DNA from: a virus
Taxonomy: Duplodnaviria > Caudoviricetes
Virus record (IMG/VR): IMGVR_UViG_3300025898_000005
Location: 124-64,123 of that record
Length of the DNA: 64,000 bases
Direction: 5' to 3' (one strand)
This document shows positions 3,546-44,480 of the stretch, piece after piece. The number at the start of each line of letters is the position of its first letter. The stretch's first letter is position 1. The notes beneath the pieces are model-generated. The model saw nothing but the letters and a program-made list of their open reading frames with translations. It made no database searches and was not told where the DNA came from. The translations under genes and the position numbers were made by a program.

Positions 3546-5338
3546 ACTACTTCGATATCGGCACGGTAATGAACCGCCTCATTCTTTTGAAGACCCGGCT
3601 CCTGGTCACTGGCGGCAGCGGATCAGGAAAATCCTACCTTCTTCGAAAGATCATGGAAGAGAATAGCGGGCAGGTCCCCATGATCATCATGGACATCGAA
3701 GGGGAATTCGTCACCCTCCGGGAGGAATTCCCCTTCGCCCTGGTGGCGGTCAGTGACGGGGATCTTCCCCTTTCCGTCCAATACGCCGACATCCTGGCCC
3801 GGAAGATCATCGAAACCCGGCTTTCCGTTATCATCGATCTTTACGACCTCCTTTCCCACGAACGGGCCCAGTTTGTGGATAAGTTCCTGAAGGCACTGAT
3901 GAACCTGCCGAAGACTTTATGGTTGGACACCCTGATCTTCATCGATGAAGCCCATTTATTTTGCCCCCAGACCGATAAGGCGCTGTCCGGGAACGCCGTC
4001 ATTGATGTGATGACCCGGGGCCGGAAGCGGGGCCTTGCCGGCATCCTTTCCACCCAGCGACTGGCCAAGCTCCACAAGGATGCCGCCGCCGAATGCCAAA
4101 ACAAGATGATCGGCAAAACCAGCCTGACGATGGATATGGAACGGTCTGCCGATGAACTGGGTCTGTCCCGTAAGGTCATCGGCCCCATGCTGCGGGCCCT
4201 GCAACCTGGTCAATTCCTTGCCCATGGTCCTGCCTTCATCAATGAACTGGAACAGGAAACGGATGGGAAAATCGAAGTTACTCCCGTAAAGACCAGCCAC
4301 GAAAAAAGGACCGGTGGGCAATCGATGCCGTCGACTCCCCCTTCTATTCGGGACATCCTGGCCAGCCTTCAGGACATCCCCCAGGAAGCGGAAAAGGAAT
4401 TGAAGACCGTTGAAGAACTACGGATTGAAGTTTCCAGTCTCCGGGAGCGGCTTAAAAAATGGGGCGCCGGAATCCCCCCGAATGATAAGGAAGCCGGCCT
4501 GATCACCCGATACCAGAACAATCTGGCGGCGATCAGCAAAGAACGGAACCGATATAAGGAGGACTGGCTCGTAACACAGAAACAGTTGGTGGAATTGGCG
4601 GTGATCGTTGACAAACAGCGAAAGGTGATTATATCCATCCTGGATATTACCCGGGATCATCTGGGAGCGGAAAAAAGCAATGTTCACATTTATAACGGCA
4701 GTCCCGGCAATGTTTCCGATGCCGAATTTGAAAAATCCGTTGAATTCGAAATGCACCTGCAGGATGACGTTCATCCCGAACGCAATGGCAATTATCTGGC
4801 AAAGGAAACCAACCTGGGCCCCGGGAAGGCTCGGGTGGAATTGAAACCTATCGAAGGACCTGCCAAATTGGGCCGGTGTGAAAGGACCGTGCTTTCCTGG
4901 TTATCCGGGTTCGACCGCGCCTTCACAAAATACCAGATAGCCATGGCCACGGGATATTCCCAGACCTCCGGCGGTTTCAAGAATGCCCTGTCTATCCTGC
5001 GGACCGAACAATTGATCGAAGGCAAAGACCTGATCAAAGCCGTCAATGAAGATAAATTCGAAAATTATGGCATGATCCCGCTTATAAAAGGGAAAGTAAC
5101 CGTCCATACCTACCGCAGCCGCCCGGGTCTTTGTGAACGGACTATCCTGGATTTCCTGGCCGATCATCCCAAAGTCCTTTACACTAAGGCAGAACTGGCT
5201 GAAATTACTGGTTATTCGGCTACTTCCGGGGGCTTTAAAAATGCCCTTTCAATATTGCATAGTCTGGAAATGGTTAAAAAGACAGCCATCGGCTTTGAAA
5301 TTCATCCATCTTTGCCTATCAATAAAAAATCATCATGA
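3542..5338 (+). CDS. HerA/FtsK-family ATPase with coiled coil and two C-terminal winged-helix-like repeats
   Basis: GGSGSGKS, DIEGEF, FIDEAHLF, RGRKRG, STQR motifs; duplicated GYSxTSGGFKNALSIL. Confidence 0.8.
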   Translation: MNYFDIGTVMNRLILLKTRLLVTGGSGSGKSYLLRKIMEENSGQVPMIIMDIEGEFVTLREEFPFALVAVSDGDLPLSVQYADILARKIIETRLSVIIDLYDLLSHERAQFVDKFLKALMNLPKTLWLDTLIFIDEAHLFCPQTDKALSGNAVIDVMTRGRKRGLAGILSTQRLAKLHKDAAAECQNKMIGKTSLTMDMERSADELGLSRKVIGPMLRALQPGQFLAHGPAFINELEQETDGKIEVTPVKTSHEKRTGGQSMPSTPPSIRDILASLQDIPQEAEKELKTVEELRIEVSSLRERLKKWGAGIPPNDKEAGLITRYQNNLAAISKERNRYKEDWLVTQKQLVELAVIVDKQRKVIISILDITRDHLGAEKSNVHIYNGSPGNVSDAEFEKSVEFEMHLQDDVHPERNGNYLAKETNLGPGKARVELKPIEGPAKLGRCERTVLSWLSGFDRAFTKYQIAMATGYSQTSGGFKNALSILRTEQLIEGKDLIKAVNEDKFENYGMIPLIKGKVTVHTYRSRPGLCERTILDFLADHPKVLYTKAELAEITGYSATSGGFKNALSILHSLEMVKKTAIGFEIHPSLPINKKSS

Positions 5339-6561
5339 AAACGAAAATTATCCTTTACCTCTTCTACAGCGTATTGGCCTTTCATTCATCCAATACCTTA
5401 TATGTGACAGCCTTCGGAGCTACCGGCAACGGGATCACCGATGACACCAACGCCATCAATACCGCCCTGGCGGCCGCCGCCTCCCAGCAGAAAACCTTGG
5501 TCTTCCCGGCAGGTACCTACCTTTGCAACAAGGTGGATGGGTCCGGAAATATCCTTTCCTTCGCAGCTGGTGGCCTGACCAGTCCCGCGATCGTCGGCCA
5601 GAACGCCATCATAAAAACCACTAAGGATTCTGCCTGCACCCAGCTTTATATCTACGCCTTTTCGGGCTGCAGCGGACTGGCAATCAGTGGTATCTTCTTC
5701 CAGAATACCCACGGCAAGATCACGGGAATAACGGATGCCATCTTTATGACAGGGACTGGCGGCCAGTTGCTGACCAACGTATATGTCCAAAACTGCCGCT
5801 TTGAAGGATTTAGTCAGGCAGTCGCTGGGCAGGGTATTACTGGATGGTATATTCAGAATAATACTTTCGGCGCCCCCCAGGGACATGATAACGGCCAGCA
5901 AACCACTGATCCCTGCGTTGGCATCTGGCTTTTCGATAATAGTAACGGAGTCTGCCGTTCAGTCTTCATCCAACGAAACAAGGCCAGCGGATATACGGGC
6001 ACCTTTCCAATGGCCTGCAAAAGACCGCTGGATGGCTTTGTCTATGGCAGCGGCTACGGCCTTCACATCGATCATAATCAGACCGATTATTATTCCGAAG
6101 AGCATTTCATGATCAACCCCCAGACCGCGGCTACCGATTCCGTCACCAATATTTCCAATAATGAAATAAATTGCCGCCTGCCTGCGGGATCCCAGAATGA
6201 CGACAATTCCCCGCATGTCATCAACTACGGCATCCGGGCGGATGTTTCCAATGCCTATATCGGCGGCAACAACATCACCAGTTATACCTATGGCATCATG
6301 TTCCGCGGCATCGATTACCCCACCACCACTTTCACCAACCTGGAATATGATGGAAACCAGTTGTATGCTCCCACCGACACGGTGGCATATTCCATTCAAA
6401 AGGCCATTACCATCACTGGCAGCACAGGCCACCCTGTAACGGGAATAAAGGTCCACGGTACAACCACCCGGTTTATTGATGCCCAGCCCATTGAACTGAT
6501 CAATACGACCGGTGCCCAATCCTTCAGTAATAATTTCTATCCTTTCAATTTCATACAGTAA
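5335..6561 (+). CDS. Right-handed beta-helix (pectate-lyase-3-like) protein with N-terminal hydrophobic signal
   Basis: VTAFGATGNGITDDTNAINTAL...FPAGTY motif; Asn ladders; hydrophobic N-terminus. Confidence 0.8.
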   Translation: MKTKIILYLFYSVLAFHSSNTLYVTAFGATGNGITDDTNAINTALAAAASQQKTLVFPAGTYLCNKVDGSGNILSFAAGGLTSPAIVGQNAIIKTTKDSACTQLYIYAFSGCSGLAISGIFFQNTHGKITGITDAIFMTGTGGQLLTNVYVQNCRFEGFSQAVAGQGITGWYIQNNTFGAPQGHDNGQQTTDPCVGIWLFDNSNGVCRSVFIQRNKASGYTGTFPMACKRPLDGFVYGSGYGLHIDHNQTDYYSEEHFMINPQTAATDSVTNISNNEINCRLPAGSQNDDNSPHVINYGIRADVSNAYIGGNNITSYTYGIMFRGIDYPTTTFTNLEYDGNQLYAPTDTVAYSIQKAITITGSTGHPVTGIKVHGTTTRFIDAQPIELINTTGAQSFSNNFYPFNFIQ

Positions 6562-7673: not shown

Positions 7674-7997
7674 ATGAAAAAGATCATCCCGCTGCTGATC
7701 ATCGCCTGCCTGGGTGCCTGCAAACGCCCACTAACCAATCATCAGCTATTTTGGAAATATCAGGACAGCACTAATAAATATATGGCGCTGCAGATTGACA
7801 TGCAGTGTTTTGAAATCGATGCCGTCATAGCCAATAAGCGGGATGATTATTTTTATTATGATCGGATGGCAACGATGGCAGGAGAAGAAGCAACCAGATA
7901 TCAGGACAGCGTGGATAAATACTTCCAGGCTTTCGAACGAGATCAGGCGGCAACCTATCTACAACAACGCGCATTTTCTCACCAAAAACCAAAATAA
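7674..7997 (+). CDS. Predicted lipoprotein
   Basis: MKKIIPLLIIACLGA-C lipobox; DST and DSV sequons. Confidence 0.65.
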   Translation: MKKIIPLLIIACLGACKRPLTNHQLFWKYQDSTNKYMALQIDMQCFEIDAVIANKRDDYFYYDRMATMAGEEATRYQDSVDKYFQAFERDQAATYLQQRAFSHQKPK

Positions 7998-20034: not shown

Positions 20035-20538
20035 ATGAAAAAGTTTCTCGTTCTCTCTTTTTTGGTGATCGGCTTCATTGCCAGCACTTTCGCCCAGACC
20101 CGGGTGGTAAATACCGGCGTATTGACCCAGGGACAGTTCCTGGATTTCGGTGGCACCTACCCCAATGGCGGAACCCTGAATCCTTCGGATTCCCTGCAGG
20201 TATCGGATTCCATCGCGTATTTTATCCCGGTGCAGCATACGAATAATTTATCACCATACCTTACCTGGTATTGGAATAAGATCGGCGCTGGCACGGCGAC
20301 CATTACGTTGACCTTTTTGCAGTCCAATGATAACGTCAACTGGTTCGCGGTACCGAAGGGCGCCGCTCAATCTGCCTATTCCAAATCCTACACATTGTCC
20401 GCAAATACGTGGAGCAACGTATCTTTTAAACAGGATACGGCTATTTTTGAGGGGCGATATCTGAAGGTCTACTTCATTACCTCTTCCACCGCCAGCGTAA
20501 AAGGCAAACTTTTCAACCGGCTCAAAACCTCCTTTTAA
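20035..20538 (+). CDS. Signal-peptide beta-sandwich protein at the head-decoration position
   Basis: MKKFLVLSFLVIGFIASTFA|Q; LQSNDNVNW...GRYLKV; DSL, DSI, DTA sequons. Confidence 0.7.
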   Translation: MKKFLVLSFLVIGFIASTFAQTRVVNTGVLTQGQFLDFGGTYPNGGTLNPSDSLQVSDSIAYFIPVQHTNNLSPYLTWYWNKIGAGTATITLTFLQSNDNVNWFAVPKGAAQSAYSKSYTLSANTWSNVSFKQDTAIFEGRYLKVYFITSSTASVKGKLFNRLKTSF

Positions 20539-30020: not shown

Positions 30021-30956
30021 ATGGCAGATTTAATACAGGCACCCGCTGAACGAATAGTATATGATGGAATTGACAATCCCATCTATGACCAGGATCTTGT
30101 GGTGGCCACCCAGAATGCCATCAGCCTGGTCCTGGCCTTGTCGGGAGCGGATGGGGGCGATTTCTTTATCATTTCGGGTCTTTATTATGTCCCGGGCGTT
30201 CCCAATACGTACACGCCGGGCTTTTTTATATTGGGGCGCAAACTGTATGTCTGTACACAAAATTTTGTGGAAGGAAGTTATCTGGGTCCAAACGTTCAGC
30301 CTACTCAGAATGAAGGCTTTAATGATGGTACATCCAGAAATATTTATCAGTCCTATGGATCATTGATATCACCCACCCCGGACCCGACCTATTCCCCCCA
30401 GTTCGAAGGGAATATGAATCAGTACCGGATTGGGAATAAATATCTGGGGCTTTCGGTAATATCCCTGCTGGCCACGCAGGCCAGCCTGGGAAATGCTTCC
30501 ACTAAGAATGTCGGCACTACGGCCGGGACGGTCGCCGCCGGCGATGATCCCCGGATGCCTTATACAGCGGCCCAACTGGCGGCCCTGTTCGTCATGCCGC
30601 CCGAAGTAATCCTGAAGGGGGATACAAATGCCTATACACCAGCTGGGCCCAATGATCCGGTAAATAAAAATTATACGGATACCAACTTCATAAAGAAACT
30701 GGCTTCCGGAAATGCGGCCGTGGGGGATGTTCCATCTGGGGGTAAATCGGTGGCGTTGGCCTTCGGTGTTACTCTCCCGGATACTAATTATATTGTTCTG
30801 GTCAGCGTGGTATCTGCCGGCGTTCCAGGAAATGATGCCAGCCTTCATACGCCAGTTATAGTTAACAAAACAACTGCTGGATGTAGTGTTCAACTAAATG
30901 AAGGGGTCGGTACCGTGCAAAATGTTAGTTTGGATTGGATCGTGCTTTCTAAATAA
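30021..30956 (+). CDS. Proximal tail fibre / adaptor (no signal peptide)
   Basis: LGNASTKNVGTTAGTVAAGDDPR fibre motif; C-terminal H-type-lectin-like segment. Confidence 0.75.
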   Translation: MADLIQAPAERIVYDGIDNPIYDQDLVVATQNAISLVLALSGADGGDFFIISGLYYVPGVPNTYTPGFFILGRKLYVCTQNFVEGSYLGPNVQPTQNEGFNDGTSRNIYQSYGSLISPTPDPTYSPQFEGNMNQYRIGNKYLGLSVISLLATQASLGNASTKNVGTTAGTVAAGDDPRMPYTAAQLAALFVMPPEVILKGDTNAYTPAGPNDPVNKNYTDTNFIKKLASGNAAVGDVPSGGKSVALAFGVTLPDTNYIVLVSVVSAGVPGNDASLHTPVIVNKTTAGCSVQLNEGVGTVQNVSLDWIVLSK

Positions 30957-33900
30957 ATGTATATGAGAAAAGTATTATTTCTGCTGTCTCTTCTTTATGC
31001 CGGCTATGCCCAGGCACAGATCCCGCAATGGATCAATCAGCCGTATATTTTCCTTAAATGGATCAATGTCCGGGACAGCATGCGTTGTCAAATCTACTTC
31101 CAGGGAACCAATGACACCCTGGCCACCCAGGCCTATGCCCGGGGACATGGCGGGGGAGGGAGCGGGAACCCGCTGCCGGGATATGGCATAAAGATCACTG
31201 GCGGCGACACGGTGAGCATCGACACGGCCAACTACCGAAAGATGGATAGTCTGTATGTGGTGACGGATTCCACTTTCATTGTAAAGATCAATGGCCGGGT
31301 TTATGCCTATAAAATGCGCGGGAACGTCTTTTCCTTCAACGGGCGCACCGCAGCCGTGGTCCCGCAGGATAACGATTATGCAGCCTTTTATCCGAAACTG
31401 GATAGTACCTATAATGACCCGTCTTTTATTTCTCACATATCCTTCCCGAAAATAACGTCATTACCCTATACGCTGGCGGGATACAATATCACCGATGCCG
31501 TTCGAAACGCCGGCGGGGTTCGAACCTGGCAGCAGGATGTTTATGCCAACCGGCCGGCATTCGGGAACCTGGGGGCATTCTTCTATGCCACGGATTCCAA
31601 TGCCATCTACTTCGATACGGGCGCCGGTTGGACAAAGGTGACCACGGCAACCAGCGGGGGGGGAACAGATTCGGCCGTATTAGCCGGTAACCTGCTGATC
31701 AAAACGGTCAGCGGGACCGCTATTACCCTGAAAGTGGATACCAATGGCCTGAAATCTTTCATCGGAACCTTGACCGGGATCACCCAACTTTTCAGCAAAC
31801 GGGGGGCGCTGATATCTGGCACCGACACGGTGGGGATTGATAGTTCCGTGGTCATTGCCTATACCGATACGCTATCCGGGGGCAAGATCGTCACCAAAAC
31901 CTTCCTTACCAATCGGGGATACCTGACATCGGAAACGGATCCCGTGGCCACGGCAAAGACGATCACCCTGACCCAGGTTGCGAACCGTGGGGTTATTATA
32001 GCGGGAACGGCGGGGCAAACGCTGGGATCAGGCCCTGCCTGGACTATAACGGCGGATACGGCCTTTCTGGCGACAAATACTTACGTCAATCGACAAGGAT
32101 TCATAAAGGCAAACCAGACCATTACGCTATCTGGTCAGGCATCAGGATCTGGAACTACGGCGATCACGGTTGCCCTGGCGACCAATACGGTGACTTATGC
32201 CCAGTTCCAGCAGGTAGCTGCCAGTTCCCTGGTGGGGAATCCGACCGGGTCCTTGGGGAATGCCCAGGCGATCGGTATACAGGCCCCGCTGATCTTCAGC
32301 AGCAGCGTACTAAAACTGGATACCACCGTTGTCCATAGTCTGGGTTTCAACGATGGCCGATACCTGACATTTGATTCCATCCGGGTGGTGGGAGTAGGAA
32401 CCGGCGGCGTATCCATTGGATATGCACAGGGTTCGGATACCCTTAACCTTGCCCGACTGATCTCTGGGTCAAATATCACCCTGACCAAAAATTCTGACAG
32501 TTCGATCACCATAGCAGCCGCCAGCGGCTTCAGCAATCCGATGACCACTTCTCAGGATTTGATCGTTGGCGGGACTGCCGGAGCGGCCGGGCGCCTGGGG
32601 GCGGGCGCAAATGGGACTTTCCTGGGGGTTCAATCCGGCGTGGTCGGATATTATACGCCACCTGGTGCGGTCAGTTCAGTGGCACCAGCAAATGGATCAT
32701 TGATCATAAGTCCTACTTCCGGCAGCGTACTGGCATCGCTCAATCCGGCCTTTACCGATAGTTTCACCGTTATCCAGAAATTCGCCGCCGGCATGAATAT
32801 AGGGGGAACCCTAACGCTTTTAAGTACAACATCCGCCGGGTCTGCCCTGAATACCAAACTGCAGGTCCTGGTGCAGGATACCAGCGCGGGACAGGGGATT
32901 GTTTATCGTAGATCCTTCCAGGGAATGGATACTACAGGCCTTGGTAAGAACCAGGGATGGATTCCCTACTATGATACGACCTGCCATTGCTGGAAGACGG
33001 AAGCAGCGCCCTCCGGCGGGGGAGGTTCGGGGAATACCAATTCCAATGTCGGGGGCGGTTACCGGTGGGCGATTCCCGGCACCAACAATGTAAAGACGGC
33101 CACGGTTGGCATAGGCCTTAGTGCGGATAGCATTGTCACCAATACGCTAAATTTTAAGGCTGATACTTCCTACCTGGTCACACTTGCTTCCGGTCAGAAT
33201 ATTACAGGGAATAAAAACTTAGGTGGCACCCTAACGCTTTCGGGTACCGGAGGGGCATCTTCCGCTTTGAATGGAAAACTAAAAATCCTGATGGCCGACA
33301 CGACCGCACAAAATACCGTTTATACCCGATCCTTTCAGGGAATGGACACGACCAATCTGGGTAAAAATCAGGGATGGACGAATTATTATGATACCACCTG
33401 TAAGTGCTGGAAGGTGCAAGCTCCCCCTGGGTTCGCCAATCCGATGACTTCGGCTGGCGACCTGATCGTGGGCGGTTCTGCAGGTGCGCCAACCCGGGCG
33501 GCTGGCAATAATACCACCACACCCCAGGTCCTATGGGGAACCGGTACCGGGAGTGCCGCCACGGCCCCGGTATGGCACACCCTGGTAAAAGGGGATATCG
33601 GACTGGGGAATGTTGAAAATACCGCATTATCGACCTGGGCGGGATCTTCATCCCTCACTACCCTGGGAACCATTGGGGCAGGCGTATGGCAGGGATCACC
33701 GGTAACGGGTCAGTTCGGTGGTACGGGGATCAACAATAGCGGAAAGACCATCACGCTGGGCGGAAGTTTTGCTACTTCCGGGGCCTTCCCGTTGACGTTT
33801 ACCCTATCTGGCTCTACGAATGTCACGCTTCCCGTCTCTGGGACGCTGGTCAATAGTTCGGTGACGACCCTTTCTTCCTTGGCGGGAGTGGGAACGATTA

Positions 33901-34649
33901 CATCGGGAACCTGGCAGGGCGGCATTGTCGGGCCGATATTTGGGGGTACCGGGGTGAACAATGGGATCAGCACCATCACCCTGGCCGGGCCGCTGGTAAC
34001 TACCGGGGCCTTTACCACGACATTGACCGCTACCGGAACCACGGCCGTGACGCTGCCGACATCCGGTACTTTATACGGTACGCAGGCGGGATCCATTACT
34101 TCGGCCCAGTTACTGGCATCTTTGACAGATGAAACAGGAACGGGTACGGCGGTCTTTTCTGCATCTCCGGCTTTGACGGGAACACCGACCGCCCCCACGG
34201 CAGCGCCAGGGACCAATACTACCCAGATTGCCACCATGGCCGCCATTCAGGCTGCAACGGGGGCTGCCATCCCTTCCGGTGGATTAGCTGCGGGAACCTA
34301 TACACCTACTCTTATTTCCACTTCTCTTGGTGGCATAGTTACGCCTGGTGTTTTCAAATATCAAAGAGTGGGGAATGTTGTCCATTACAGCGGGCCCGTT
34401 TCAATATCCGCTGAACCTGCCACAAATACGCAATACACGGTGGATATCTCCTTACCGATAAGTTCTACTTATTCCGCAGCAACGGATTTGAACGGGGTAT
34501 GCGTAACCACCGGATCCGGAGATGCCCCCGGTTGGGCCACTGCTTTAAACAATTCTGGAACCATTGTTTCCAGAAGTCGGATGTGGTCTACCATCAACGC
34601 GGGTAATGGGGTGACCATCATAATTGAAGGAACTTATATCGTACAATAA
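30957..34649 (+). CDS. Long tail-fibre-like protein with Sec signal peptide and dense D(S/T) sequons
   Basis: MRKVLFLLSLLYAGYAQA|Q; fibre motifs VFSFNGRTAAV, NPMTTxxDLIVGG, SPALTGTPTAPTAAPGTNTTQIAT, YQRVGNVVH. Confidence 0.8.
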   Translation: MYMRKVLFLLSLLYAGYAQAQIPQWINQPYIFLKWINVRDSMRCQIYFQGTNDTLATQAYARGHGGGGSGNPLPGYGIKITGGDTVSIDTANYRKMDSLYVVTDSTFIVKINGRVYAYKMRGNVFSFNGRTAAVVPQDNDYAAFYPKLDSTYNDPSFISHISFPKITSLPYTLAGYNITDAVRNAGGVRTWQQDVYANRPAFGNLGAFFYATDSNAIYFDTGAGWTKVTTATSGGGTDSAVLAGNLLIKTVSGTAITLKVDTNGLKSFIGTLTGITQLFSKRGALISGTDTVGIDSSVVIAYTDTLSGGKIVTKTFLTNRGYLTSETDPVATAKTITLTQVANRGVIIAGTAGQTLGSGPAWTITADTAFLATNTYVNRQGFIKANQTITLSGQASGSGTTAITVALATNTVTYAQFQQVAASSLVGNPTGSLGNAQAIGIQAPLIFSSSVLKLDTTVVHSLGFNDGRYLTFDSIRVVGVGTGGVSIGYAQGSDTLNLARLISGSNITLTKNSDSSITIAAASGFSNPMTTSQDLIVGGTAGAAGRLGAGANGTFLGVQSGVVGYYTPPGAVSSVAPANGSLIISPTSGSVLASLNPAFTDSFTVIQKFAAGMNIGGTLTLLSTTSAGSALNTKLQVLVQDTSAGQGIVYRRSFQGMDTTGLGKNQGWIPYYDTTCHCWKTEAAPSGGGGSGNTNSNVGGGYRWAIPGTNNVKTATVGIGLSADSIVTNTLNFKADTSYLVTLASGQNITGNKNLGGTLTLSGTGGASSALNGKLKILMADTTAQNTVYTRSFQGMDTTNLGKNQGWTNYYDTTCKCWKVQAPPGFANPMTSAGDLIVGGSAGAPTRAAGNNTTTPQVLWGTGTGSAATAPVWHTLVKGDIGLGNVENTALSTWAGSSSLTTLGTIGAGVWQGSPVTGQFGGTGINNSGKTITLGGSFATSGAFPLTFTLSGSTNVTLPVSGTLVNSSVTTLSSLAGVGTITSGTWQGGIVGPIFGGTGVNNGISTITLAGPLVTTGAFTTTLTATGTTAVTLPTSGTLYGTQAGSITSAQLLASLTDETGTGTAVFSASPALTGTPTAPTAAPGTNTTQIATMAAIQAATGAAIPSGGLAAGTYTPTLISTSLGGIVTPGVFKYQRVGNVVHYSGPVSISAEPATNTQYTVDISLPISSTYSAATDLNGVCVTTGSGDAPGWATALNNSGTIVSRSRMWSTINAGNGVTIIIEGTYIVQ

Positions 34650-34655
34650 TAAATT

Positions 34656-35675
34656 ATGAAAAAACTGCTATTTATCCTGCTATTCCCGATTCTCACCCAG
34701 GCCCAGACCAACCAGGGTGCATTCATGTATAACTATGGCGCTGCGGTGCCGGTGATCTTCGAAAGTGGTTCGCTGGCCCCGTTCACCACCGTATCGCCAG
34801 CGGCATCCACTCCGGCAAAAACATTCACCTTTACCGCCAGCAGTTTGACCGGTTCGGTGACCGCTACGGCCGATGCCCCGATGCAGGTCGCCCCGGATGG
34901 GTCAACCTTTGCCACCACGGCCGTTTTCGGTCAAACCCTGGGTATATCTTCAGGAACCGTTTCCGTACGAATAGCAGCTAGTACAGCGGTAGGTAGTTAT
35001 TCGGGTAAAATCCGGCTTACTTCTCCCGGCGCTGCCTTCGTGGATGTTCCCTTCACCGCGACCGTCACATCCGGAGCCACCTTAACCGTGGTAAAGTTCA
35101 ATATCTGGGATGCCAGTCAAACAAATGGGAAAGTATTGCAGTCTGGGTTTAATAACTGGAATCCATCGGATCTTCTTTTTGGCCAGACCACCACTTCCGG
35201 CGCCATGACAGATACGACCGGTGCCAGCACGGCCGTGACTATGACCTTATCGGCGGGACCTGAAGCGGATGTACAGGGATTTTATACCAACAATGGTGAA
35301 CCGTATGCTGCTGCCACCACGGCACCCTATCCAGATACTTTGTTTGAAATTCCTTACCTCTTCACGACCGGCGGGGAATCCTCCGGAACGGATTCCATTA
35401 TTTTCAATGTTCCTGGCATCACACCTTCATCGGGGGGGTTTAATATTGAACTAATCAGCAGCCGGTCGACAGGGACCAGCAGACCGCAAACTTTCACTTG
35501 TAATGGCACGACGATTCCACTGGATGCCCAAAATAACCTGAATAATCTTACCGGCGGGCGGGTGCCCCTTCACTGGGATAATGTTCCTGCAGTAGGGGGG
35601 CGGATTGTGGTGGTCATGAAATATACAGCCACTTTTGTCTATGCCAATGGCGGTAAAATATCGTGGATACCTTAA
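34656..35675 (+). CDS. Secreted beta-rich protein (Ig-like plus jelly-roll-like)
   Basis: MKKLLFILLFPILTQA|Q signal peptide. Confidence 0.7.
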   Translation: MKKLLFILLFPILTQAQTNQGAFMYNYGAAVPVIFESGSLAPFTTVSPAASTPAKTFTFTASSLTGSVTATADAPMQVAPDGSTFATTAVFGQTLGISSGTVSVRIAASTAVGSYSGKIRLTSPGAAFVDVPFTATVTSGATLTVVKFNIWDASQTNGKVLQSGFNNWNPSDLLFGQTTTSGAMTDTTGASTAVTMTLSAGPEADVQGFYTNNGEPYAAATTAPYPDTLFEIPYLFTTGGESSGTDSIIFNVPGITPSSGGFNIELISSRSTGTSRPQTFTCNGTTIPLDAQNNLNNLTGGRVPLHWDNVPAVGGRIVVVMKYTATFVYANGGKISWIP

Positions 35676-35686: not shown

Positions 35687-36166
35687 ATGAGAATCATCAC
35701 CTTTTTATTGATCCTTTTTTCTTCCATCTGCCGGGCCCAGGATGTAACCGGGGATGTAAATAAGTTGATCAATGGCCAAATAAATACATTCAGTATGGGA
35801 CTGGATAGTATTATTGTTCACACACAACTTACTTCAGGGACTACCGCTGCCTTCGTGGATACCCTTCGACTGCCCATCAATACTACCTGTTTATATTCCA
35901 TTCACTTACAGGCGGAAAATATTAACACGCTGGAAACGGCCAGGGCTTACAAAGAGATAGAAATTAAAAACATCAATGGGGTCTATTCCTTTCCGGGATC
36001 CACCGATGTGGTCGCCTATCCCGGTCAATCGGCCACGACCAGCATTTCGAAAGCAACCTGGTCCATCCTATCCAGCGGTGGGATTTATGTCATCCGGGTG
36101 GCAGGAGTGGCTGGCGTAAATATGAAATGGACCATTACCCGAACGCAAATAATAACTGCATTATGA
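35687..36166 (+). CDS. Secreted small beta-sandwich protein
   Basis: MRIITFLLILFSSICRA|Q signal peptide. Confidence 0.7.
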   Translation: MRIITFLLILFSSICRAQDVTGDVNKLINGQINTFSMGLDSIIVHTQLTSGTTAAFVDTLRLPINTTCLYSIHLQAENINTLETARAYKEIEIKNINGVYSFPGSTDVVAYPGQSATTSISKATWSILSSGGIYVIRVAGVAGVNMKWTITRTQIITAL

Positions 36167-39100
36167 AGAAACTTATTTATTTCACAATTTTGGTATTCTT
36201 AGGACTTATCGGTAAGTCCCAGACGGCTGGGACCATCATCAATGTGCCTTATACCACGGCTTCTACGCCGACCTTCCAGGCATACCTGTATCTTCCCAAT
36301 GACTACGGGACCACCGGTTCCCAGCGGTATCCGCTTTTCATATTCCTGCATGGCTCCGGGGAATCCTGCCCACCAGTGTCGAACATATACAATTCCACTA
36401 CCGCCGGGGGACCGCTCTATTTTATCGAACATGGCCTGTGGCCAACTGGCGGATTTATGAATTACCGGACCGGAGCTACTGAAAAATATATTGTTCTGGG
36501 TCCACAATCCGCCTGTAATTCCTGGTCTACTTCCGGAGATCAACTAGCGAACATCAAAACGTACATGGTGCAGAATTACCGGGTGGATAGCAATCGGATC
36601 ATCGTTTCCGGTCTTTCTTCCGGTGGTGGTGGAACGGTAGAAAATACGGCCAATCTTAGCGGGAATGAAACGACCCAGACCTTCCCTTCCCGTTATAAGA
36701 ATGCCGCCGTGATCCCCATGAGCCCCGCCACGAACAATCCCCTGCAGGCTTGGGGGGCGCAATTCGTTACGGATTCCGTTCCCTCCTGGTTCTTCGGGGA
36801 TCAAAACAATGACACCTATGGGGAATATGCCTGGAACTTCGCCCGGCGCCTACCCACCCCCAACGCGACCACCAACGGCTTCATCAATGCCATAAAATTC
36901 GGATATGCCTATTTTACCGGCAACCCGGGGACAAATGGCGTTTCCACTTTTAACACCGGCCATGGACCTTGGAATACTTACTACAATCCTACCTTCCGGG
37001 TATCCTTTACTGATTCCACCATAAAGCCGGCGGTGACTGGGACCTTCAGCATTTATGAATGGGGGCTGATGCATGTGCGCAATTCGGTCGCCGTGACCAC
37101 GCCAACGGCCAACGCTGGCAGCAATCAGTCCATCACCCAGCCGACCAGCACGGTGACGCTAACAGGATCAGGAACGGCCGGCACTGGCCATAATATCCCG
37201 ACTTCAGGCGGATATGCCTGGACCCAGGTATCTGGGCCCACTTCAACGATCACTACGCCTACGTTATCTAGCACCACCGTGACCGGCATGACAACGGCCG
37301 GGGCCTATGTCTACCAGTTGAAAGTCACCAATGAGATAGGGGCCTTCGCTACCAGTCAGGTGACAATAACGGTGATCAGCAATGCCCCGCATGCGAATGC
37401 TGGACCTGATCAAACGATCACCCTGCCCATCAGTTCCGTCACGCTTGACGGTACAGGATCTTCTGGCGGGATTACTTCCTACGCCTGGTCCCAATTGACC
37501 GGACCCAATACCGGAAATATCAATTCCGCAACGGCCGCCACCACATCGGTGACTGCCCTGATCGCCGGGGTCTATACCTTTCAATTATCGCTGAATTCCG
37601 GGGCCAGCAAGGATACGGTGCAGATCACCGTGCAGCCGGTTCAGCCGTGCGGTCCTCACAACAAGATCATTCTGCATCCTTTTTCGGACAGCACTTATTT
37701 TATCAATAACGCCGTTTCCCATACCTTCCAGGCTGGTGACACGATTGTCTTTACCCATACAGATGTATGGAAAAGTGCCGTCTTCCAGAATATGAACGGC
37801 GCCCCGGGTTGCCCTATCGTGCTGCAAAACGATTCCGGTCCCATTCCTTTTACAAGTCCTCCGAATGGTCACCGGTCCGGTAATGATTACAGTGGAATGA
37901 AATTCGCGTCCTGTTCTCATATTCACCTGCAGGGGAATGCGGATCCTACCACCAAATATGGTTTCTTCTTCCAGTATGATCCGGTCTTCGTTTATCAGAC
38001 CACGCCGGCGCTGATCATCGATGACAAGTCTACCAACGTGGAAGTTAACAATGTATCTTTCCGGAATGTGGATATTGCGATCGTCGCGGAAGTAACGGAG
38101 AATTGTGACACGACCTTCAACTGGCCCAATTGGTTCATGGATAGTATCATCATCCATGATATAAAGGTTCGACGGACCTGGAATGAAGGGTTTTACCTGG
38201 GAAATACGAGTCCCGACAATGCCCTTTATGATCACCGGCCAACCGTTTGTGGGGTAGATACTTTTTATTATAAACCTGCCAAAAATGGATATACACAGGT
38301 TTATAACATTGATATGGATAGTACCGGCCGGAGTGGTATACAGTTGGCCAATGCGATCGTCAACCCAGCCGGGGCCCGGTCGGAAATCTTCAATTGTACG
38401 GTCAAACATGCTGGATTGAATGGCGATGATGCACAAGGGTGCGGTATCGATCCGGGACTTTATACCGTGGTCCGGATTCATGACAATGTGATCACCAATA
38501 CATATACTTTTGGCGTTGGCAGTTTGGGAGCCAATGGGACCAGTACACCGCTGGAAATCTATAATAACCGGATAGACAGTGCCGGATTTTTGAGAACGTT
38601 CAATAATGCCACCACGGATTCCGTTCGTTATAATCCTGAAACGGCGCCTACCTTCCGGGATAGCCTGACCTATCCTTATCCCATTTTTGTGACCACCAGA
38701 CCGATGTCCTTTACTACCGACAGCCTGCCAGGTACGGCCATCCATGGGCTGGATAGTCTCAATTTCATCATCAAAAATAATACCTTGGGTCTTTTTAAGG
38801 CGGCGACACGGCCGGACAGTAATGTCGTTGGTAACTCTACGGCTGCCATCCAGATTGAACAGGACAGCCGAAATACCACCATTCAAAAAAATGGGAATGT
38901 GATCTGCGGGAATACATTCTTCAATGATCAGCCGGCCACAGTCTTCACCGACAATCGGCAGGGAGTGATCAATTATTCAACGAACTGCGGGAATGCTATT
39001 AAAAGACTGATAGCCAGTATTGGGGATGCCGTAGATGCCCCCGCAATTGTGGCCGATACGCTGATCCTGCCGTTGGATTCCACTTTTATCGAAGGTTATG

Positions 39101-39402
39101 CCCTGGCCGATTCTTTGAATAATATTACAAATCTCACCATCACCCAAATAGGGGGGCCATCTTGTACCATTACGCAGCGCCTGAGAATACCAACCAGCGG
39201 GATAGGGCAATCCCTTATTATTGATTGGGATATTAAAAAAATGTTGACCCCGGGAATCTATTCCTTTTCCATAATAGGATTTTCCGATGCAGGAACCACT
39301 GCCAGTACTTCCGTATCGATCACCATCCTGGGGGCCTTACCCAATCCAAAAAATTACATGCCAGTTCATAAGTATAGTAAAAAACGTATATTGGGGCACT
39401 AA
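36163..39402 (+). CDS. Secreted alpha/beta-hydrolase - PKD-like repeats - right-handed beta-helix protein
   Basis: MKKLIYFTILVFLGLIGKS|Q; YPLFIFLHGSGE and GLSSGG nucleophile elbow; two ANAGxxQxITxP PKD-type repeats; beta-helix ladders. Confidence 0.8.
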   Translation: MKKLIYFTILVFLGLIGKSQTAGTIINVPYTTASTPTFQAYLYLPNDYGTTGSQRYPLFIFLHGSGESCPPVSNIYNSTTAGGPLYFIEHGLWPTGGFMNYRTGATEKYIVLGPQSACNSWSTSGDQLANIKTYMVQNYRVDSNRIIVSGLSSGGGGTVENTANLSGNETTQTFPSRYKNAAVIPMSPATNNPLQAWGAQFVTDSVPSWFFGDQNNDTYGEYAWNFARRLPTPNATTNGFINAIKFGYAYFTGNPGTNGVSTFNTGHGPWNTYYNPTFRVSFTDSTIKPAVTGTFSIYEWGLMHVRNSVAVTTPTANAGSNQSITQPTSTVTLTGSGTAGTGHNIPTSGGYAWTQVSGPTSTITTPTLSSTTVTGMTTAGAYVYQLKVTNEIGAFATSQVTITVISNAPHANAGPDQTITLPISSVTLDGTGSSGGITSYAWSQLTGPNTGNINSATAATTSVTALIAGVYTFQLSLNSGASKDTVQITVQPVQPCGPHNKIILHPFSDSTYFINNAVSHTFQAGDTIVFTHTDVWKSAVFQNMNGAPGCPIVLQNDSGPIPFTSPPNGHRSGNDYSGMKFASCSHIHLQGNADPTTKYGFFFQYDPVFVYQTTPALIIDDKSTNVEVNNVSFRNVDIAIVAEVTENCDTTFNWPNWFMDSIIIHDIKVRRTWNEGFYLGNTSPDNALYDHRPTVCGVDTFYYKPAKNGYTQVYNIDMDSTGRSGIQLANAIVNPAGARSEIFNCTVKHAGLNGDDAQGCGIDPGLYTVVRIHDNVITNTYTFGVGSLGANGTSTPLEIYNNRIDSAGFLRTFNNATTDSVRYNPETAPTFRDSLTYPYPIFVTTRPMSFTTDSLPGTAIHGLDSLNFIIKNNTLGLFKAATRPDSNVVGNSTAAIQIEQDSRNTTIQKNGNVICGNTFFNDQPATVFTDNRQGVINYSTNCGNAIKRLIASIGDAVDAPAIVADTLILPLDSTFIEGYALADSLNNITNLTITQIGGPSCTITQRLRIPTSGIGQSLIIDWDIKKMLTPGIYSFSIIGFSDAGTTASTSVSITILGALPNPKNYMPVHKYSKKRILGH

Positions 39403-39411: not shown

Positions 39412-39729
39412 ATGAAAAAATTACTGCTATTACTTAGTTTCTTATCAATCTGCCTGCTGACATTCAGCCAGGATCACCAGGTCAACCCATTGAAAAAGGA
39501 TACGGTGAAGGGAAAGATTCCGGCTGGTAAAAAGGTGATCGCCGCCAAAAAGGATACGATTCCGCCCCTATCCATTATCCCCCGGGAAAAGGCCTACGTG
39601 CTGATGTTGTCTGAAAATGAGATCCAGCGCCTTTATTCCATTGTACGCACTTCCGGCAAACTTACCGGCACGGAAATAGAGGATTATCTCATATTGCTGG
39701 ATCAGCGAAAAAAAGAGATAAAACAATAA
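39412..39729 (+). CDS. Small secreted protein
   Basis: MKKLLLLLSFLSICLLTFS|Q; KKDTV and KKDTI sequons. Confidence 0.65.
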   Translation: MKKLLLLLSFLSICLLTFSQDHQVNPLKKDTVKGKIPAGKKVIAAKKDTIPPLSIIPREKAYVLMLSENEIQRLYSIVRTSGKLTGTEIEDYLILLDQRKKEIKQ

Positions 39730-39951: not shown

Positions 39952-40359
39952 ATGAAATCAACCAAGTTATCGCTCATTTTTGCTTTGGCCATCGGGGTGT
40001 CCTTCGTGGCCATTGGACAGAACCTGAAGGACAGTGCGGGCAGTCCGCCGATCAAAGATTCCACCCAGTACGTGGCTGACAGCGTTCAGATCGCCACCCA
40101 GATGCAGCCTACCATTGTCGGTTTGCCTGTATCGCGGCCAGTTCAATCAATCTTTATCGCGGTCATTACCGCCCTGGCTACGGTCCTGGGCGCTGTTCAG
40201 TATGTCTTGAAAAAGATACCTACCCCGGTCAGTGTAAAAATTGAAGGGGTTGTGGGGAAAATATTGGATGTGGCGACCTTCTTCCAGCCGGATAGAAGTA
40301 CCAATGGCGGCGTTCATGCGGATAAACCGGATCCACTAAGTGCGCCGAAGAAGCCCTGA
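39952..40359 (+). CDS. Signal peptide plus transmembrane protein in the lysis region
   Basis: MKSTKLSLIFALAIGVSFVAIG|Q; DSA, DST, DSV before the TM helix. Confidence 0.6.
   Translation: MKSTKLSLIFALAIGVSFVAIGQNLKDSAGSPPIKDSTQYVADSVQIATQMQPTIVGLPVSRPVQSIFIAVITALATVLGAVQYVLKKIPTPVSVKIEGVVGKILDVATFFQPDRSTNGGVHADKPDPLSAPKKP

Positions 40360-42695: not shown

Positions 42696-42712
<17 letters not shown>
42317..42712 (+). CDS. Fibre adaptor (BppU-N-like) protein
   Basis: PIDIRTYAF...GDYRL; coupled to the collagen gene. Confidence 0.55.

Positions 42713-44480
<1,768 letters not shown>

What the first reader, a model, noticed from the sequence alone, without database searches (positions are those of the whole stretch)
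30957..33430. Strong enrichment of the Bacteroidota O-glycosylation sequon D-(S/T)-x in the exported phage proteins
Seen (manual count): in the 1230-aa fibre, 28 of about 42 Asp are followed by S or T, all within the first ~820 aa, and 20 match D(S/T)(A/I/L/V/M/T). In the 36163 protein about 22 of 49 Asp are followed by S/T (16 canonical). Each small signal-peptide protein also has 2-4 sequons (20035: DSL, DSI, DTA; 39412: DTV, DTI; 39952: DSA, DST, DSV; 61653: DSL x2, DTI x2; 59884; 7674). The S/T-rich last ~400 aa of the fibre has none, so composition alone is unlikely to explain it. Established: this sequon is used by the phylum-wide general O-glycosylation system acting on extracytoplasmic proteins. 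Inference: the phage routes structural proteins through the periplasm to be coated with host glycan, for shielding, stiffness, adhesion or camouflage, leaving the distal tip bare.
Basis: partly seen in the sequence, partly recalled or inferred. Interest (0 to 1): 0.9.

Follow-up and report, generated by a model that had tools for sequence, protein, structure and literature searches.

The report
Exported, sequon-packed phage fibre proteins
A 64-kb contractile-tailed phage of Bacteroidota puts its host's secretion signal on a 1230-residue fibre and about ten other proteins, and packs just these with four times the chance number of the host's sugar-attachment motif. They are therefore very probably exported and glycosylated outside the cytoplasm, which is not how tailed-phage parts are known to be made.

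Summary
In the fibre (30957-34649), 28 of 42 Asp are followed by S/T and 20 match D[ST][AILVMT], against 4.6 expected. The 36163 protein has 22 of 49 and 16 canonical.

Pooled, 11 signal-peptide proteins (4030 aa) carry 60 sequons against 14.1 expected (z about 13). The 55 signal-less ORFs carry 35 against 35.7.

Only Asp at position 1 is enriched. D[ST] followed by a non-allowed residue, the reversed motif and the other reading frames are not.

The signal repeats elsewhere:
- All 26 database representatives that share the fibre's signal peptide and N-domain are enriched.
- So is a syntenic viral contig.

It is absent from a signal-less Bacteroidota phage fibre. It is also absent from ordinary exported proteins of three Bacteroidota genome samples.

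The fibre ends in a knob like viral receptor-binding heads (Z 9.3). That tip is sequon-poor across the family.

Export plus host O-glycosylation is well supported (about 0.85). Whether the fibre joins the virion is open (about 0.45).

Five literature searches on this question found no description. This scan has noted similar cases on at least 13 other genomes.

The parts
30957..31016 (+). Signal peptide of the fibre (aa 1-20; predicted cleavage AQA|Q, leaving Gln at +1)
   Evidence: Sequence. The leader is conserved in all 26 family representatives. Gln after the cut fits the Bacteroidetes Q-rule (PMC5837995, listing and abstract).
31017..33428 (+). Conserved N-domain (to about aa 235) and sequon-rich shaft of the fibre: 28 D[ST] sites, 20 of them canonical
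   Evidence: Sequon columns D40, D53, D97, D104 and D304 are canonical in 10 of 10 aligned homologues, with S/T swaps and swaps at the third position.
33429..34646 (+). Sequon-free distal part of the fibre. The last ~120 aa (34281-34646) form a knob-like beta-sandwich.
   Evidence: 0 of 6 Asp are followed by S/T. AF2 model of the last 205 aa: mean pLDDT 64.7, and 70-88 over much of the knob. VIA-align: reovirus sigmaC head Z 9.3 (rmsd 3.0, 115 aligned), Det7 tailspike C-domain Z 9.1, then other viral fibre heads.
34656..35675 (+). 339-aa signal-peptide protein (TQA|Q), 3 sequons against 1.1 expected
   Evidence: No Pfam, NCBIfam or PHROG hit.
35687..36166 (+). 159-aa signal-peptide protein (CRA|Q)
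   Evidence: 2 sequons against 0.5 from this start.
36163..39402 (+). 1079-aa exported enzyme-like protein: esterase-like N-domain, two K319L-type PKD domains, beta-helix region. 16 sequons against 4.1 expected.
   Evidence: 13 full-length homologues that lack the T9SS tail carry 108 against 44.3.
39412..39729 (+). 105-aa signal-peptide protein, 2 sequons against 0.3 expected
39952..40359 (+). 135-aa protein with a signal peptide and an internal hydrophobic stretch, 3 sequons against 0.5 expected
20035..20538 (+). 167-aa signal-peptide protein encoded right after the protease/capsid gene, 3 sequons against 0.4 expected
7674..7997 (+). 107-aa predicted lipoprotein (LGAC lipobox), 2 sequons against 0.2 expected
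5335..6561 (+). 408-aa pectate-lyase-fold protein with a possible signal peptide, 3 sequons against 1.4 expected
   Evidence: The signal peptide is uncertain.
59884..60213 (+). 109-aa signal-peptide protein (AFS|Q), 2 sequons
61653..62231 (+). 192-aa signal-peptide protein, 4 sequons
30021..30956 (+). Context: signal-less 311-aa fibre-like protein directly upstream. Its stop codon abuts the fibre's ATG. 0 sequons against 1.1 expected.
   Evidence: Of the 54 homologues, weak local hits include phage tail proteins carrying PF12571 and PF03406.
42696..44480 (+). Context: signal-less collagen-repeat protein, a second candidate for a fibre assembled in the cytoplasm
   Evidence: Pfam Collagen, E 1.9e-32. 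PHROG tail-fibre families, best E 7.8e-50. 3 sequons against 1.2 expected.

Best explanation
SHOWN FROM SEQUENCE.
- The window is nearly a whole 64-kb contractile-tailed phage genome whose kin infect Bacteroidota.
- Its 1230-aa fibre, a 1079-aa esterase/PKD/beta-helix protein and about nine smaller proteins begin with Bacteroidota-type Sec signal peptides, with Gln after the predicted cut; one is a lipoprotein.
- Only these proteins are packed with D-(S/T)-(A/I/L/V/M/T): 1.5 per 100 aa, which is 4.3 times chance.

INFERRED, ABOUT 0.85.
- They are exported through Sec. In the periplasm the host's general O-glycosylation system glycosylates them at many of these sites: up to 20 on the fibre and about 60 in the phage.
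- The density is far above that of ordinary exported Bacteroidota proteins, so dense glycosylation is selected for. Protection or solubility of proteins that must work outside the cell is the most likely reason.
- The receptor-binding knob is kept free of glycan.

INFERRED, ABOUT 0.45.
- The fibre is a receptor-binding appendage of the particle. It trimerises and matures in the periplasm.
- It meets the particles, which are built in the cytoplasm, only once the inner membrane is breached at lysis. It docks through its conserved N-domain.
- The esterase/beta-helix enzyme is released with it and acts on surface polysaccharide.
For: PHAGE IDENTITY AND HOST PHYLUM.
- G000 is one contig of 64123 b.
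- PHROG hits: terminase, portal, protease, sheath, tape measure and baseplate hub.
- Relatives of the hub: 19 of 19 matching phage records are Flavobacterium (13), Winogradskyella (2) or uncultured (4).
- Named homologues of the 1079-aa protein come from Chitinophaga, Puia, Fulvivirga and Chitinophagaceae.

ENRICHMENT AND COMPARTMENT.
- Signal-peptide set 60 against 14.1; signal-less set 35 against 35.7.
- An automatic signal-peptide rule gives 54 against 13.2 and 37 against 37.8.

MOTIF SPECIFICITY.
- Of the 20 possible first residues, only Asp is enriched (z 12.8).
- D[ST][non-AILVMT] 15 against 19.1; reversed motif 14 against 13.8.
- Third residues are T16, L14, V11, I11, A7 and S4 of 75. 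This matches the preference described in review PMC12871550 (passages).
- The sites use 2 Asp codons, 8 Ser/Thr codons and 17 third-position codons. The other frames show 2 against 3.4, 7 against 4.0 and 6 against 6.9.

REPLICATION.
- 12 of 12 close homologues are enriched.
- 26 of 26 representatives with leader plus N-domain are enriched, z 3.5-15.2.
- 27 family proteins: 722 against 152.4.
- Syntenic contig L003: 4 signal-peptide proteins after the baseplate carry 42 against 10.9; its other ORFs 10 against 11.2.

CONSERVATION. The sequon columns keep Asp while S/T and the third residue swap within the allowed set.

CONTRASTS.
- The signal-less fibre of Leeuwenhoekiella phage Arctus_1, which shares a module with this fibre, has 3 against 4.3.
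- Signal-peptide proteins of three Bacteroidota genome samples have 40 against 43.7, 23 against 17.5 and 7 against 13.0.

FIBRE NATURE.
- The gene abuts the baseplate module.
- The N-domain is conserved and the distal part varies.
- The tip has a knob fold and is sequon-poor.

PRECEDENT FOR LEADER-BEARING PROTEINS IN VIRIONS.
- Cellulophaga phage phi18:3 gp085-087 begin with such leaders.
- Its record labels them structural 'based on experimental MS/MS proteomics analysis'.

ESTABLISHED KNOWLEDGE (review PMC12871550, passages).
- The system acts only on non-cytoplasmic proteins.
- Motifs are nearly fully occupied.
- An engineered motif is glycosylated.
Against: - No glycan, cleavage or localisation has been measured.
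- Signal peptides were called without SignalP.
- The host is unknown. The family has no relative in 185,579 species genomes.
- Export alone does not give enrichment: ordinary exported proteins sit at chance.
- The leader-bearing virion proteins of phi18:3 are sequon-poor: 1 against 3.7, 1 against 3.0 and 1 against 2.8.
- Against the virion step:
  - The phage has a signal-less 311-aa fibre-like protein next to the baseplate and a signal-less collagen-like fibre protein. These could be its real fibres.
  - No docking mechanism is known.
  - Exported fibre adhesins that are not virion parts exist in bacteria (PMC10769870).
- The fibre has no Pfam or PHROG hit, and the N-domain model was poor (pLDDT 51.9).
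- The knob match (Z 9.3) is only a little above the usual best Z of 7-8 for unrelated models (note).
Confidence: 0.5

Rival explanations
1. The proteins are exported and glycosylated but never become part of the particle. They act in the envelope of the infected cell or as free proteins after lysis. Possible roles are a free polysaccharide esterase/depolymerase, a fibre-like adhesin or receptor blocker that keeps progeny off debris or excludes other phages, and lysis helpers. The signal-less 311-aa and collagen-like proteins would then be the virion fibres.
For: - Two signal-less fibre-like proteins are encoded.
- The signal-peptide cluster lies between the baseplate module and the candidate lysis region.
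- Bdellovibrio MAT fibres have the same build: signal peptide, conserved N-domain, shaft, variable tip. They sit on a cell surface, not on a virion (PMC10769870, passages).
- Many hits to the fibre's shared module are large secreted bacterial proteins.
- Bacterial homologues of the 1079-aa protein are secreted T9SS cargo.
- P. gingivalis phages encode Q-rule signal-peptide proteins, which that paper takes to modify the host envelope (PMC10367356, passages).
Against: - No T9SS C-terminal domain or other route across the outer membrane was found on the fibre or the enzyme.
- No integrase was found, and no relative lies in bacterial genomes. A lysogenic-conversion role is therefore unlikely.
- The fibre abuts the baseplate genes in two phages.
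- The build (conserved N-domain, variable distal part, knob) is what virion fibres show.
- Leader-bearing proteins are recorded in phi18:3 virions.
- The knob shows no sequence likeness to the signal-less fibres, so a decoy with the same tip is not supported.
Confidence: 0.33
2. The D-(S/T)-hydrophobic excess is a structural habit of these folds, for example capping of strands in fibre repeats. It has nothing to do with glycosylation.
For: - Much of the count lies in repeated shaft units, such as GTDTxxVDTT.
- Exported Bacteroidota proteins in general are not enriched, so the compartment alone does not explain the excess.
- phi18:3's leader-bearing virion proteins lack it.
Against: - The excess appears in at least eight proteins of this phage that have no detected family in common: 24 against 5.2 without the two large ones.
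- It also appears in the esterase/PKD/beta-helix protein.
- Non-allowed third residues are not enriched.
- Signal-less proteins that share the fibre module show 401 against 504.2 (89 proteins), and the signal-less Arctus_1 fibre 3 against 4.3.
- Fibre-module proteins with leaders unlike the Bacteroidota type are mostly at or below chance.
Confidence: 0.08
3. The N-terminal hydrophobic stretches are not working signal peptides. They could be wrong start codons, membrane anchors or assembly tags, and the proteins would stay in the cytoplasm.
For: No dedicated predictor and no experiment was available. Start codons are uncertain for 35663, 36127 and 39910.
Against: - The leader is aligned and conserved from residue 1 in 26 of 26 representatives. 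Each has the usual basic start, hydrophobic core and small-x-small cut followed by Gln.
- The sequon excess tracks these leaders and nothing else. This is hard to explain for cytoplasmic proteins.
Confidence: 0.04

Closest known systems
Substrates of the general protein O-glycosylation system of Bacteroidota (review PMC12871550, passages read)
   Same: - Sec or lipoprotein leader.
- The same D-(S/T)-(hydrophobic, T or A) motif.
- The same third-residue preference.
- Modification is expected in the periplasm.
   Different: - The substrates are phage-encoded; the review has 0 occurrences of 'phage'.
- Sequon density is about 6 times that of ordinary exported proteins in my samples: 1.49 against 0.23 per 100 aa.
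- No glycan has been measured here.
Leader-bearing virion proteins gp085, gp086 and gp087 of the cultured Cellulophaga phage phi18:3 (NC_021794.1)
   Same: - A Bacteroidota phage.
- Large proteins with a leader and Gln at the predicted cut.
- Encoded ahead of the endolysin gene; one is labelled 'tail protein'.
- The record calls them structural on MS/MS evidence.
   Different: - phi18:3 is a podovirus of another family.
- No sequence relation was found.
- Its three proteins are sequon-poor (1 each against 2.8-3.7 expected).
- I did not read the proteomics paper; I relied on the record's notes.
Mosaic adhesive trimer (MAT) fibres of Bdellovibrio bacteriovorus (PMC10769870, passages read)
   Same: - Signal peptide, then a conserved beta-rich N-domain, a trimeric phage-like shaft and a variable adhesive tip.
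- Many secreted bacterial proteins share the fibre's module at aa ~120-228.
   Different: - MATs are chromosomal genes of a predator and sit on its cell surface.
- No S74 chaperone-protease domain was found in this phage.
- The fibre-module proteins with leaders unlike the Bacteroidota type show no sequon excess.
Q-rule signal-peptide proteins of Porphyromonas gingivalis phages (PMC10367356, passages read)
   Same: Phage genes of Bacteroidota whose products have SPI leaders with Gln at +1. That paper reads them as use of the host's secretion system.
   Different: - They are genes of unknown function in prophages, not fibres.
- The paper has 0 occurrences of 'glycosyl'.
Glycosylated virions of mycobacteriophages, and Sec-exported coat proteins of filamentous phages (both recalled, not read here)
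   Same: They are precedents for sugar-coated virion proteins and for virion proteins that pass through Sec.
   Different: - As I recall, mycobacteriophage glycosylation uses phage-encoded transferases in the cytoplasm.
- Filamentous phages assemble at the membrane and have no tail.
- Neither uses a host periplasmic, sequon-directed system on tail fibres.

Membership tests
Substrate of the Bacteroidota general O-glycosylation system | The producing cell belongs to Bacteroidota | tested here: met
   The evidence is indirect.
- Baseplate-hub relatives occur only in Flavobacterium or Winogradskyella phages (15 of 19 records) and uncultured phages (4 of 19).
- Named homologues of the 1079-aa protein are from Chitinophagaceae and kin.
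- The leaders follow the Q-rule.
The host itself is not identified.
Substrate of the Bacteroidota general O-glycosylation system | The protein leaves the cytoplasm (Sec/SPI or SPII leader, or periplasmic loop) | tested here: met
   The leaders were seen by eye and by my own rule and are conserved in 26 of 26 representatives. No dedicated predictor was run.
Substrate of the Bacteroidota general O-glycosylation system | Carries D-(S/T)-(A/I/L/V/M/T) | tested here: met
   60 sites in 11 proteins against 14.1 expected. Only this motif is enriched.
Substrate of the Bacteroidota general O-glycosylation system | A glycan is attached at the motif's Ser or Thr | not testable with these tools
   This needs glycoproteomics or a mass-shift assay.
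Tailed-phage tail fibre / receptor-binding protein | Encoded in the tail module next to the baseplate genes | tested here: met
   The ATG at 30957 abuts the stop codon of the 311-aa gene that follows the baseplate genes. L003 has the same order.
Tailed-phage tail fibre / receptor-binding protein | Fibre build: conserved proximal domain, long shaft, distal receptor-binding head | tested here: met
   - The N-domain is conserved and the distal part varies.
- The knob matches reovirus sigmaC (Z 9.3), Det7 tailspike (9.1), adenovirus and reovirus heads, PSA RBP and pyocin fibres (Z 7-7.7).
- Foldseek alone was not significant: best E 0.016.
Tailed-phage tail fibre / receptor-binding protein | Sequence homology to a known fibre family | tested here: inconclusive
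   - No Pfam or PHROG hit.
- One 83-aa module is 42% identical to the annotated fibre of Leeuwenhoekiella phage Arctus_1.
- The same module also occurs in secreted bacterial proteins.
Tailed-phage tail fibre / receptor-binding protein | Present on the particle, which is assembled in the cytoplasm | not testable with these tools
   The leader argues against assembly in the cytoplasm. Presence on particles needs virion proteomics.
Type IX secretion cargo | C-terminal sorting domain (TIGR04183 / PF18962) | tested here: not met
   - No NCBIfam hit at E <= 0.1 on the fibre or the 1079-aa protein.
- No hit in the whole record; however, that search's controls did not ring either.
- 65 bacterial homologues of the 1079-aa protein carry the domain, while the 13 full-length homologues picked as phage-like were chosen for lacking it.
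MAT-type exported fibre adhesins | Signal peptide, then a conserved N-domain, a trimeric shaft and a variable tip. In 13 of the 21 B. bacteriovorus MATs there is also an S74 chaperone-protease. | tested here: inconclusive
   The build is alike. No S74 domain is present in the record. The N-domains were not shown to be related: bacterial hits match only aa ~120-228.

The most novel reading that the evidence does not exclude
A contractile-tailed phage builds its particle in two compartments. Head, tail and baseplate form in the cytoplasm. The receptor-binding fibre matures in the periplasm, and so perhaps does the small protein encoded beside the capsid gene. There the host's own O-glycosylation machinery coats the shaft with some 20 glycans per chain and leaves the knob bare. 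The parts join only when the inner membrane is breached at lysis. The phage's own glycosyltransferases and acyltransferase may edit the glycan that it receives.
Probability: 0.4. Interest if true: 0.92.

Novelty: new variant of a known kind. Interest (0 to 1): 0.8.

Why it matters
Tailed-phage particles are taken to be assembled wholly in the cytoplasm. Virion glycosylation is known only from a few cases that use phage enzymes.

Here a phage family appears to hand its host-recognition gear to the host's Sec pathway and periplasmic O-glycosylation system, at a sequon density well above that of host proteins. If true, several things follow.
- It changes how receptor-binding proteins of Bacteroidota phages should be expressed and studied. 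E. coli cytoplasm would give unglycosylated, perhaps misfolded fibres.
- It predicts that host glycosylation mutants alter phage stability or host range.
- It gives the still poorly understood function of Bacteroidota O-glycosylation a sharp test case.
- It gives a simple sequence signature (leader plus sequon excess) for finding such phages and assigning them to Bacteroidota hosts.

Tried and rejected
- Complex prediction of the 311-aa protein with fibre residues 22-235: no answer, score 0.00. This is no evidence either way.
- AF2 model of fibre residues 21-330: mean pLDDT 51.9, too poor to search with.
- Foldseek of the knob model against PDB: no match at E <= 0.001, best E 0.016. VIA-align was used instead.
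- The search for related loci in genome contigs, with the fibre alignment and with the 1079-aa protein: no relative. No prophage copy and no host could therefore be named.
- The viral-contig scan with the single fibre gave only a chance 18-residue match in a high-GC phage, L001, which I dropped.
I took the host-phylum baseline from three 'plasmid' records instead.
- The T9SS family search of the phage's own record found nothing, but its controls did not ring.
- The look-up of sequencing runs listed no RNA holder. The one DNA holder, X1 (labelled a rhizosphere metagenome), may be the source of this DNA.
- BLASTP of the fibre's last 205 residues (knob included) against the collagen-like protein, and of the whole fibre against the 311-aa and 339-aa proteins: nothing significant.
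- Protein atlas look-alikes of the N-domain are viral clusters, but all score below 0.9. They are a lead only.
- Pfam, NCBIfam and PHROGs left the fibre, the small signal-peptide proteins and the candidate lysis genes unnamed. No holin, endolysin or spanin could be placed.
- Literature searches on glycosylation or export of Bacteroidota phage proteins found no paper on O-glycosylation of such proteins or on exported tail fibres of tailed phages. The library holds only open-access papers and bioRxiv.
- Supplements are closed. The signal-peptide gene lists of PMC10367356 and any virion proteome tables could not be seen.
Full report
WHAT THE WINDOW IS

The window is all but 123 bases of a single 64,123-base virus record. 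CheckV's completeness estimate, as the tool shows it, is about 90%. Nearly all long ORFs lie on the plus strand.

PHROG profiles name these genes:
- a large terminase (9286)
- a portal (11061)
- a protease-containing 891-aa head protein (17300)
- a tail sheath (21199, E 2.5e-6)
- a tape measure (23621)
- a baseplate hub (26090, E 2.7e-37)

It is therefore a contractile-tailed phage. The hub protein finds 19 phage records: 13 Flavobacterium phages, 2 Winogradskyella phages and 4 uncultured ones. No tyrosine integrase was found.

THE OBSERVATION

The counts reproduce exactly.
- Fibre (30957-34649, 1230 aa): 42 Asp, 28 followed by Ser/Thr, 20 in D[ST][AILVMT]. Shuffles of the same protein expect 10.1 and 4.6, and 0 of 1000 reach the observed values. 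Shuffling within 40-residue blocks, which keeps local composition, gives 20 against 4.4. Dropping one copy of an internal repeat leaves 17 against 4.4.
- Protein from 36163: 49 Asp, 22 D[ST], 16 canonical against 4.1.
- The triplets listed for the small proteins are all present.

IS IT TIED TO EXPORT?

I split the plus-strand ORFs into two sets.
- 11 with an N-terminal leader: 5335 (doubtful), 7674 (lipobox LGAC), 20035, 30957, 34656, 35687, 36163, 39412, 39952, 59884 and 61653.
- 55 without a leader.

The ORFs that my greedy pick placed on the minus strand were left out of this count.

Results:
- Leader set: 60 sequons against 14.1 expected, z 12.6, 0 of 2000 shuffles.
- The nine smaller leader proteins alone: 24 against 5.2.
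- Leaderless set: 35 against 35.7.

An automatic leader rule applied to ORFs on both strands gave 54 against 13.2 and 37 against 37.8. It also picked two short ORFs that are probably spurious. Removing the first 25 residues does not change the result: 60 against 13.6.

IS IT THE SEQUON, OR SOMETHING LOOSER?
- Among all 20 residues placed before [ST][AILVMT], only Asp is enriched: z 12.8 in the leader set and 0.0 in the other.
- D[ST] followed by a residue outside the allowed set is not enriched: 15 against 19.1.
- Nor are the reversed motif (14 against 13.8), D-x-[ST] or D[AG][AILVMT].
- Third residues are T, L, V, I, A and S in 63 of 75 D[ST] sites. This is the preference that the review of the system describes (PMC12871550, passages).
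- The sites use both Asp codons, 8 Ser/Thr codons and 17 third codons. The two other sense frames and the antisense frame show nothing. The signal is therefore at the protein level.

REPLICATION IN RELATIVES
- All 12 closer homologues of the fibre start with a leader of the same type (one is truncated at the start) and are enriched, z 2.5-14.5.
- A full HMMER search with residues 1-230 found 707 proteins at E <= 0.001.
- 26 of the 150 listed proteins align from their first residues, that is, leader plus N-domain. All 26 have the leader and all are enriched, z 3.5-15.2.
- 27 family proteins together carry 722 sequons against 152.4 expected.
- In the alignment, the sequon columns at D40, D53, D97, D104 and D304 are canonical in 10 of 10 homologues. 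Ser/Thr and the third residue swap within the allowed set, for example DSM, DSI, DSV, DTM and DSL.
- A syntenic viral contig (L003) has sheath, tape measure and baseplate genes without leaders (all its leaderless ORFs together: 10 against 11.2). Four leader-bearing proteins follow, of 1362, 441, 146 and 903 aa, with 42 against 10.9.
- 13 full-length homologues of the 1079-aa protein lack a T9SS tail and show 108 against 44.3.

CONTRASTS
- The other hits share only a module at fibre residues ~120-228. Over all 155 proteins examined, the 89 without a leader have 401 against 504.2. Leader-bearing ones that looked non-Bacteroidota by their N-termini are at or below chance.
- The annotated tail fibre of Leeuwenhoekiella phage Arctus_1, a Bacteroidota phage, shares that module. 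It has no leader and has 3 against 4.3.
- Two cultured relatives by baseplate hub, Flavobacterium phage pippi8-1 and Winogradskyella phage Peternella_1, have no leader on any large tail protein.
- Ordinary exported proteins of Bacteroidota are not enriched by this test:
  - 39 leader proteins in 200 kb of a Parabacteroides distasonis record: 40 against 43.7 (0.23 per 100 aa).
  - 5 in 50 kb of Chondrinema: 23 against 17.5.
  - 10 in 50 kb of Hymenobacter: 7 against 13.0.
  These samples are small, and my leader rule makes some false calls in them.
- 65 bacterial homologues of the 1079-aa protein that carry a T9SS tail average 450 against 444.3. They range from 28 against 6.5 (a Puia dinghuensis protein) to 0 against about 15.

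The phage's density of 1.49 per 100 aa is therefore not a passive by-product of export. It looks selected.

WHAT THE PROTEINS ARE

The fibre has four parts:
- a 20-residue leader with Gln after the predicted cut
- a conserved N-domain
- a long Gly/Ser/Thr-rich shaft with repeated units
- a distal part that differs between relatives

The last ~120 residues fold, at moderate confidence, into a beta-sandwich. Its best structural matches among 48,161 chains are viral attachment heads:
- avian reovirus sigmaC: Z 9.3, rmsd 3.0, 115 aligned
- Det7 tailspike C-domain: Z 9.1
- reovirus sigma1: Z 7.7
- a mouse adenovirus fibre head: Z 7.6
- Listeria phage PSA receptor-binding protein: Z 7.4
- R-pyocin fibres: Z 7.0

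The tool warns that Z 7-8 is common for unrelated models. I weigh the theme of the list more than the score.

The tip is sequon-poor.
- In this fibre, 0 of 6 Asp against 28 of 36 upstream, Fisher p 0.0006.
- Across 22 long family members, 0.62 against 2.44 per 100 aa, and 10 of 22 have none in their last 300 aa.

The 1079-aa protein has:
- an esterase-like N-domain: PHB-depolymerase/carboxylesterase hits at E 1e-5 to 3e-6, below the curated cut-offs
- two K319L-type PKD domains, E 4e-38
- a region that aligns to right-handed beta-helix proteins

This is the build of a polysaccharide-acting enzyme.

The 20035 protein sits directly after the head gene.

The phage also encodes:
- a signal-less 311-aa protein just upstream of the fibre, with weak local likeness to phage tail fibre proteins
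- a signal-less collagen-repeat protein that hits PHROG tail-fibre families
- a GT2 and a GT1 glycosyltransferase and a hexapeptide acyltransferase

HOW IT MOST LIKELY WORKS

Established, from the review (passages):
- The Bacteroidota system assembles a glycan on undecaprenyl phosphate, flips it to the periplasm and transfers it to Ser/Thr in this motif.
- It acts on non-cytoplasmic proteins only.
- Motifs are nearly fully occupied.
- Engineered motifs are glycosylated, and glycosylation works across species.

Established, from PMC5837995 (listing and abstract): Gln after the signal-peptidase cut is a hallmark of the phylum.

Inferred:
- These phage proteins are exported and glycosylated at many sites.
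- The density is selected, probably to protect or solubilise proteins that must work outside the cell.
- The knob stays bare so that binding is not blocked.

More speculative: the fibre joins the cytoplasm-built particle only after the inner membrane is breached at lysis.

The one piece of outside evidence for leader-bearing proteins in virions is the record of the cultured Cellulophaga phage phi18:3.
- gp085, gp086 and gp087 carry such leaders.
- The record annotates them as structural 'based on experimental MS/MS proteomics analysis'.
- They are not sequon-rich, so export and dense glycosylation are separable traits.

RIVALS

The main rival is that the exported set never sits on the particle. 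It would act as free enzyme and adhesin, receptor blocker or lysis helper, and the signal-less fibre-like proteins would serve as the virion fibres. Bdellovibrio MAT fibres show that leader-bearing, phage-like trimeric fibres can be cell-surface adhesins (PMC10769870).

A purely structural origin of the motif, or non-functional leaders, fits the controls poorly.

KNOWN OR NEW?
- Five searches aimed at this question found no paper on O-glycosylation of Bacteroidota phage proteins or on exported tail fibres of tailed phages. Passages read in papers they listed added nothing either.
- A sixth search, for the Q-rule, led to the nearest paper. It notes Q-rule leaders on unknown genes of P. gingivalis phages and does not mention glycosylation (PMC10367356).
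- Earlier notes of this scan report leader-bearing, sequon-rich fibres at about three times chance on at least 13 other genomes, mostly crAss-like and other short-tailed phages. From them I took the phi18:3 and MAT leads and checked both myself.
- This window adds a contractile-tailed family, a stronger excess (4.3 times; 4.7 times for the fibre family) and the host-phylum baselines.

LIMITS
- No signal-peptide predictor was available.
- No host was identified.
- Nothing was measured for glycan, cleavage or localisation.
- The baselines are small.
- One structural model is of moderate confidence.
- Supplements and the phi18:3 proteomics paper were not seen.

Noticed in passing
window 60240-61651 (+) and 44944-45996 (-): The phage encodes a hexapeptide-repeat acyltransferase (60240-60830), a GT2 glycosyltransferase (60827-61651) and a GT1 glycosyltransferase (44944-45996). 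They could modify host surface polysaccharide or the O-glycan that the exported phage proteins would receive. Two small signal-peptide proteins (59884, 61653) flank the first pair.
   Followed up: partly
window 42696-44480 (+): A 594-aa collagen-repeat protein without a leader, in a local GC peak of 59%. It hits PHROG tail-fibre families and lies downstream of the signal-peptide cluster, apart from the baseplate module.
   Followed up: partly
proteins P0250, P0259, P0269, P0277 (bacterial homologues of the 36163 protein): Four ~1500-1800-aa proteins with a T9SS tail have 0 sequons against 14-15 expected, z about -4 to -4.6. A source names two of them 'gliding motility-associated-like'. Such strong avoidance of the motif in exported proteins is unexplained.
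   Followed up: no
L013 (Cellulophaga phage phi18:3) 2892-8584: The three leader-bearing proteins that the record calls structural on MS/MS evidence are sequon-poor. The six leader-type ORFs of this 41-kb stretch together have 3 sequons against 10.5 expected, z -2.7.
   Followed up: partly
window 32970-33000 and 33390-33420 (fibre aa ~672-681 and ~811-820): The fibre carries two copies of a ~60-aa repeat that ends in YYDTTC(H/K)CWK. This gives a paired-cysteine CxC motif, which fits a protein that folds in an oxidising compartment or binds a metal.
   Followed up: no
window 3542-6561 (+): A HerA/FtsK-like ATPase with a weak Zot-domain hit (3542-5338) is followed, with overlapping stop and start codons, by the pectate-lyase-fold protein with a possible leader (5335-6561). 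This is an odd pair at the left end, ahead of the terminase.
   Followed up: no
window 54018-56954 (+): Two DNA methyltransferases, C5-cytosine (54018-55715) and N6/N4 (55980-56954), lie near a RecT protein (48226-49170) and an SNF2 helicase (57713-59404).
   Followed up: no
window 17300-19975 (+): An 891-aa head protein whose first ~380 residues match head-maturation protease profiles. It may be a protease-capsid fusion. The 167-aa signal-peptide protein follows it directly.
   Followed up: no
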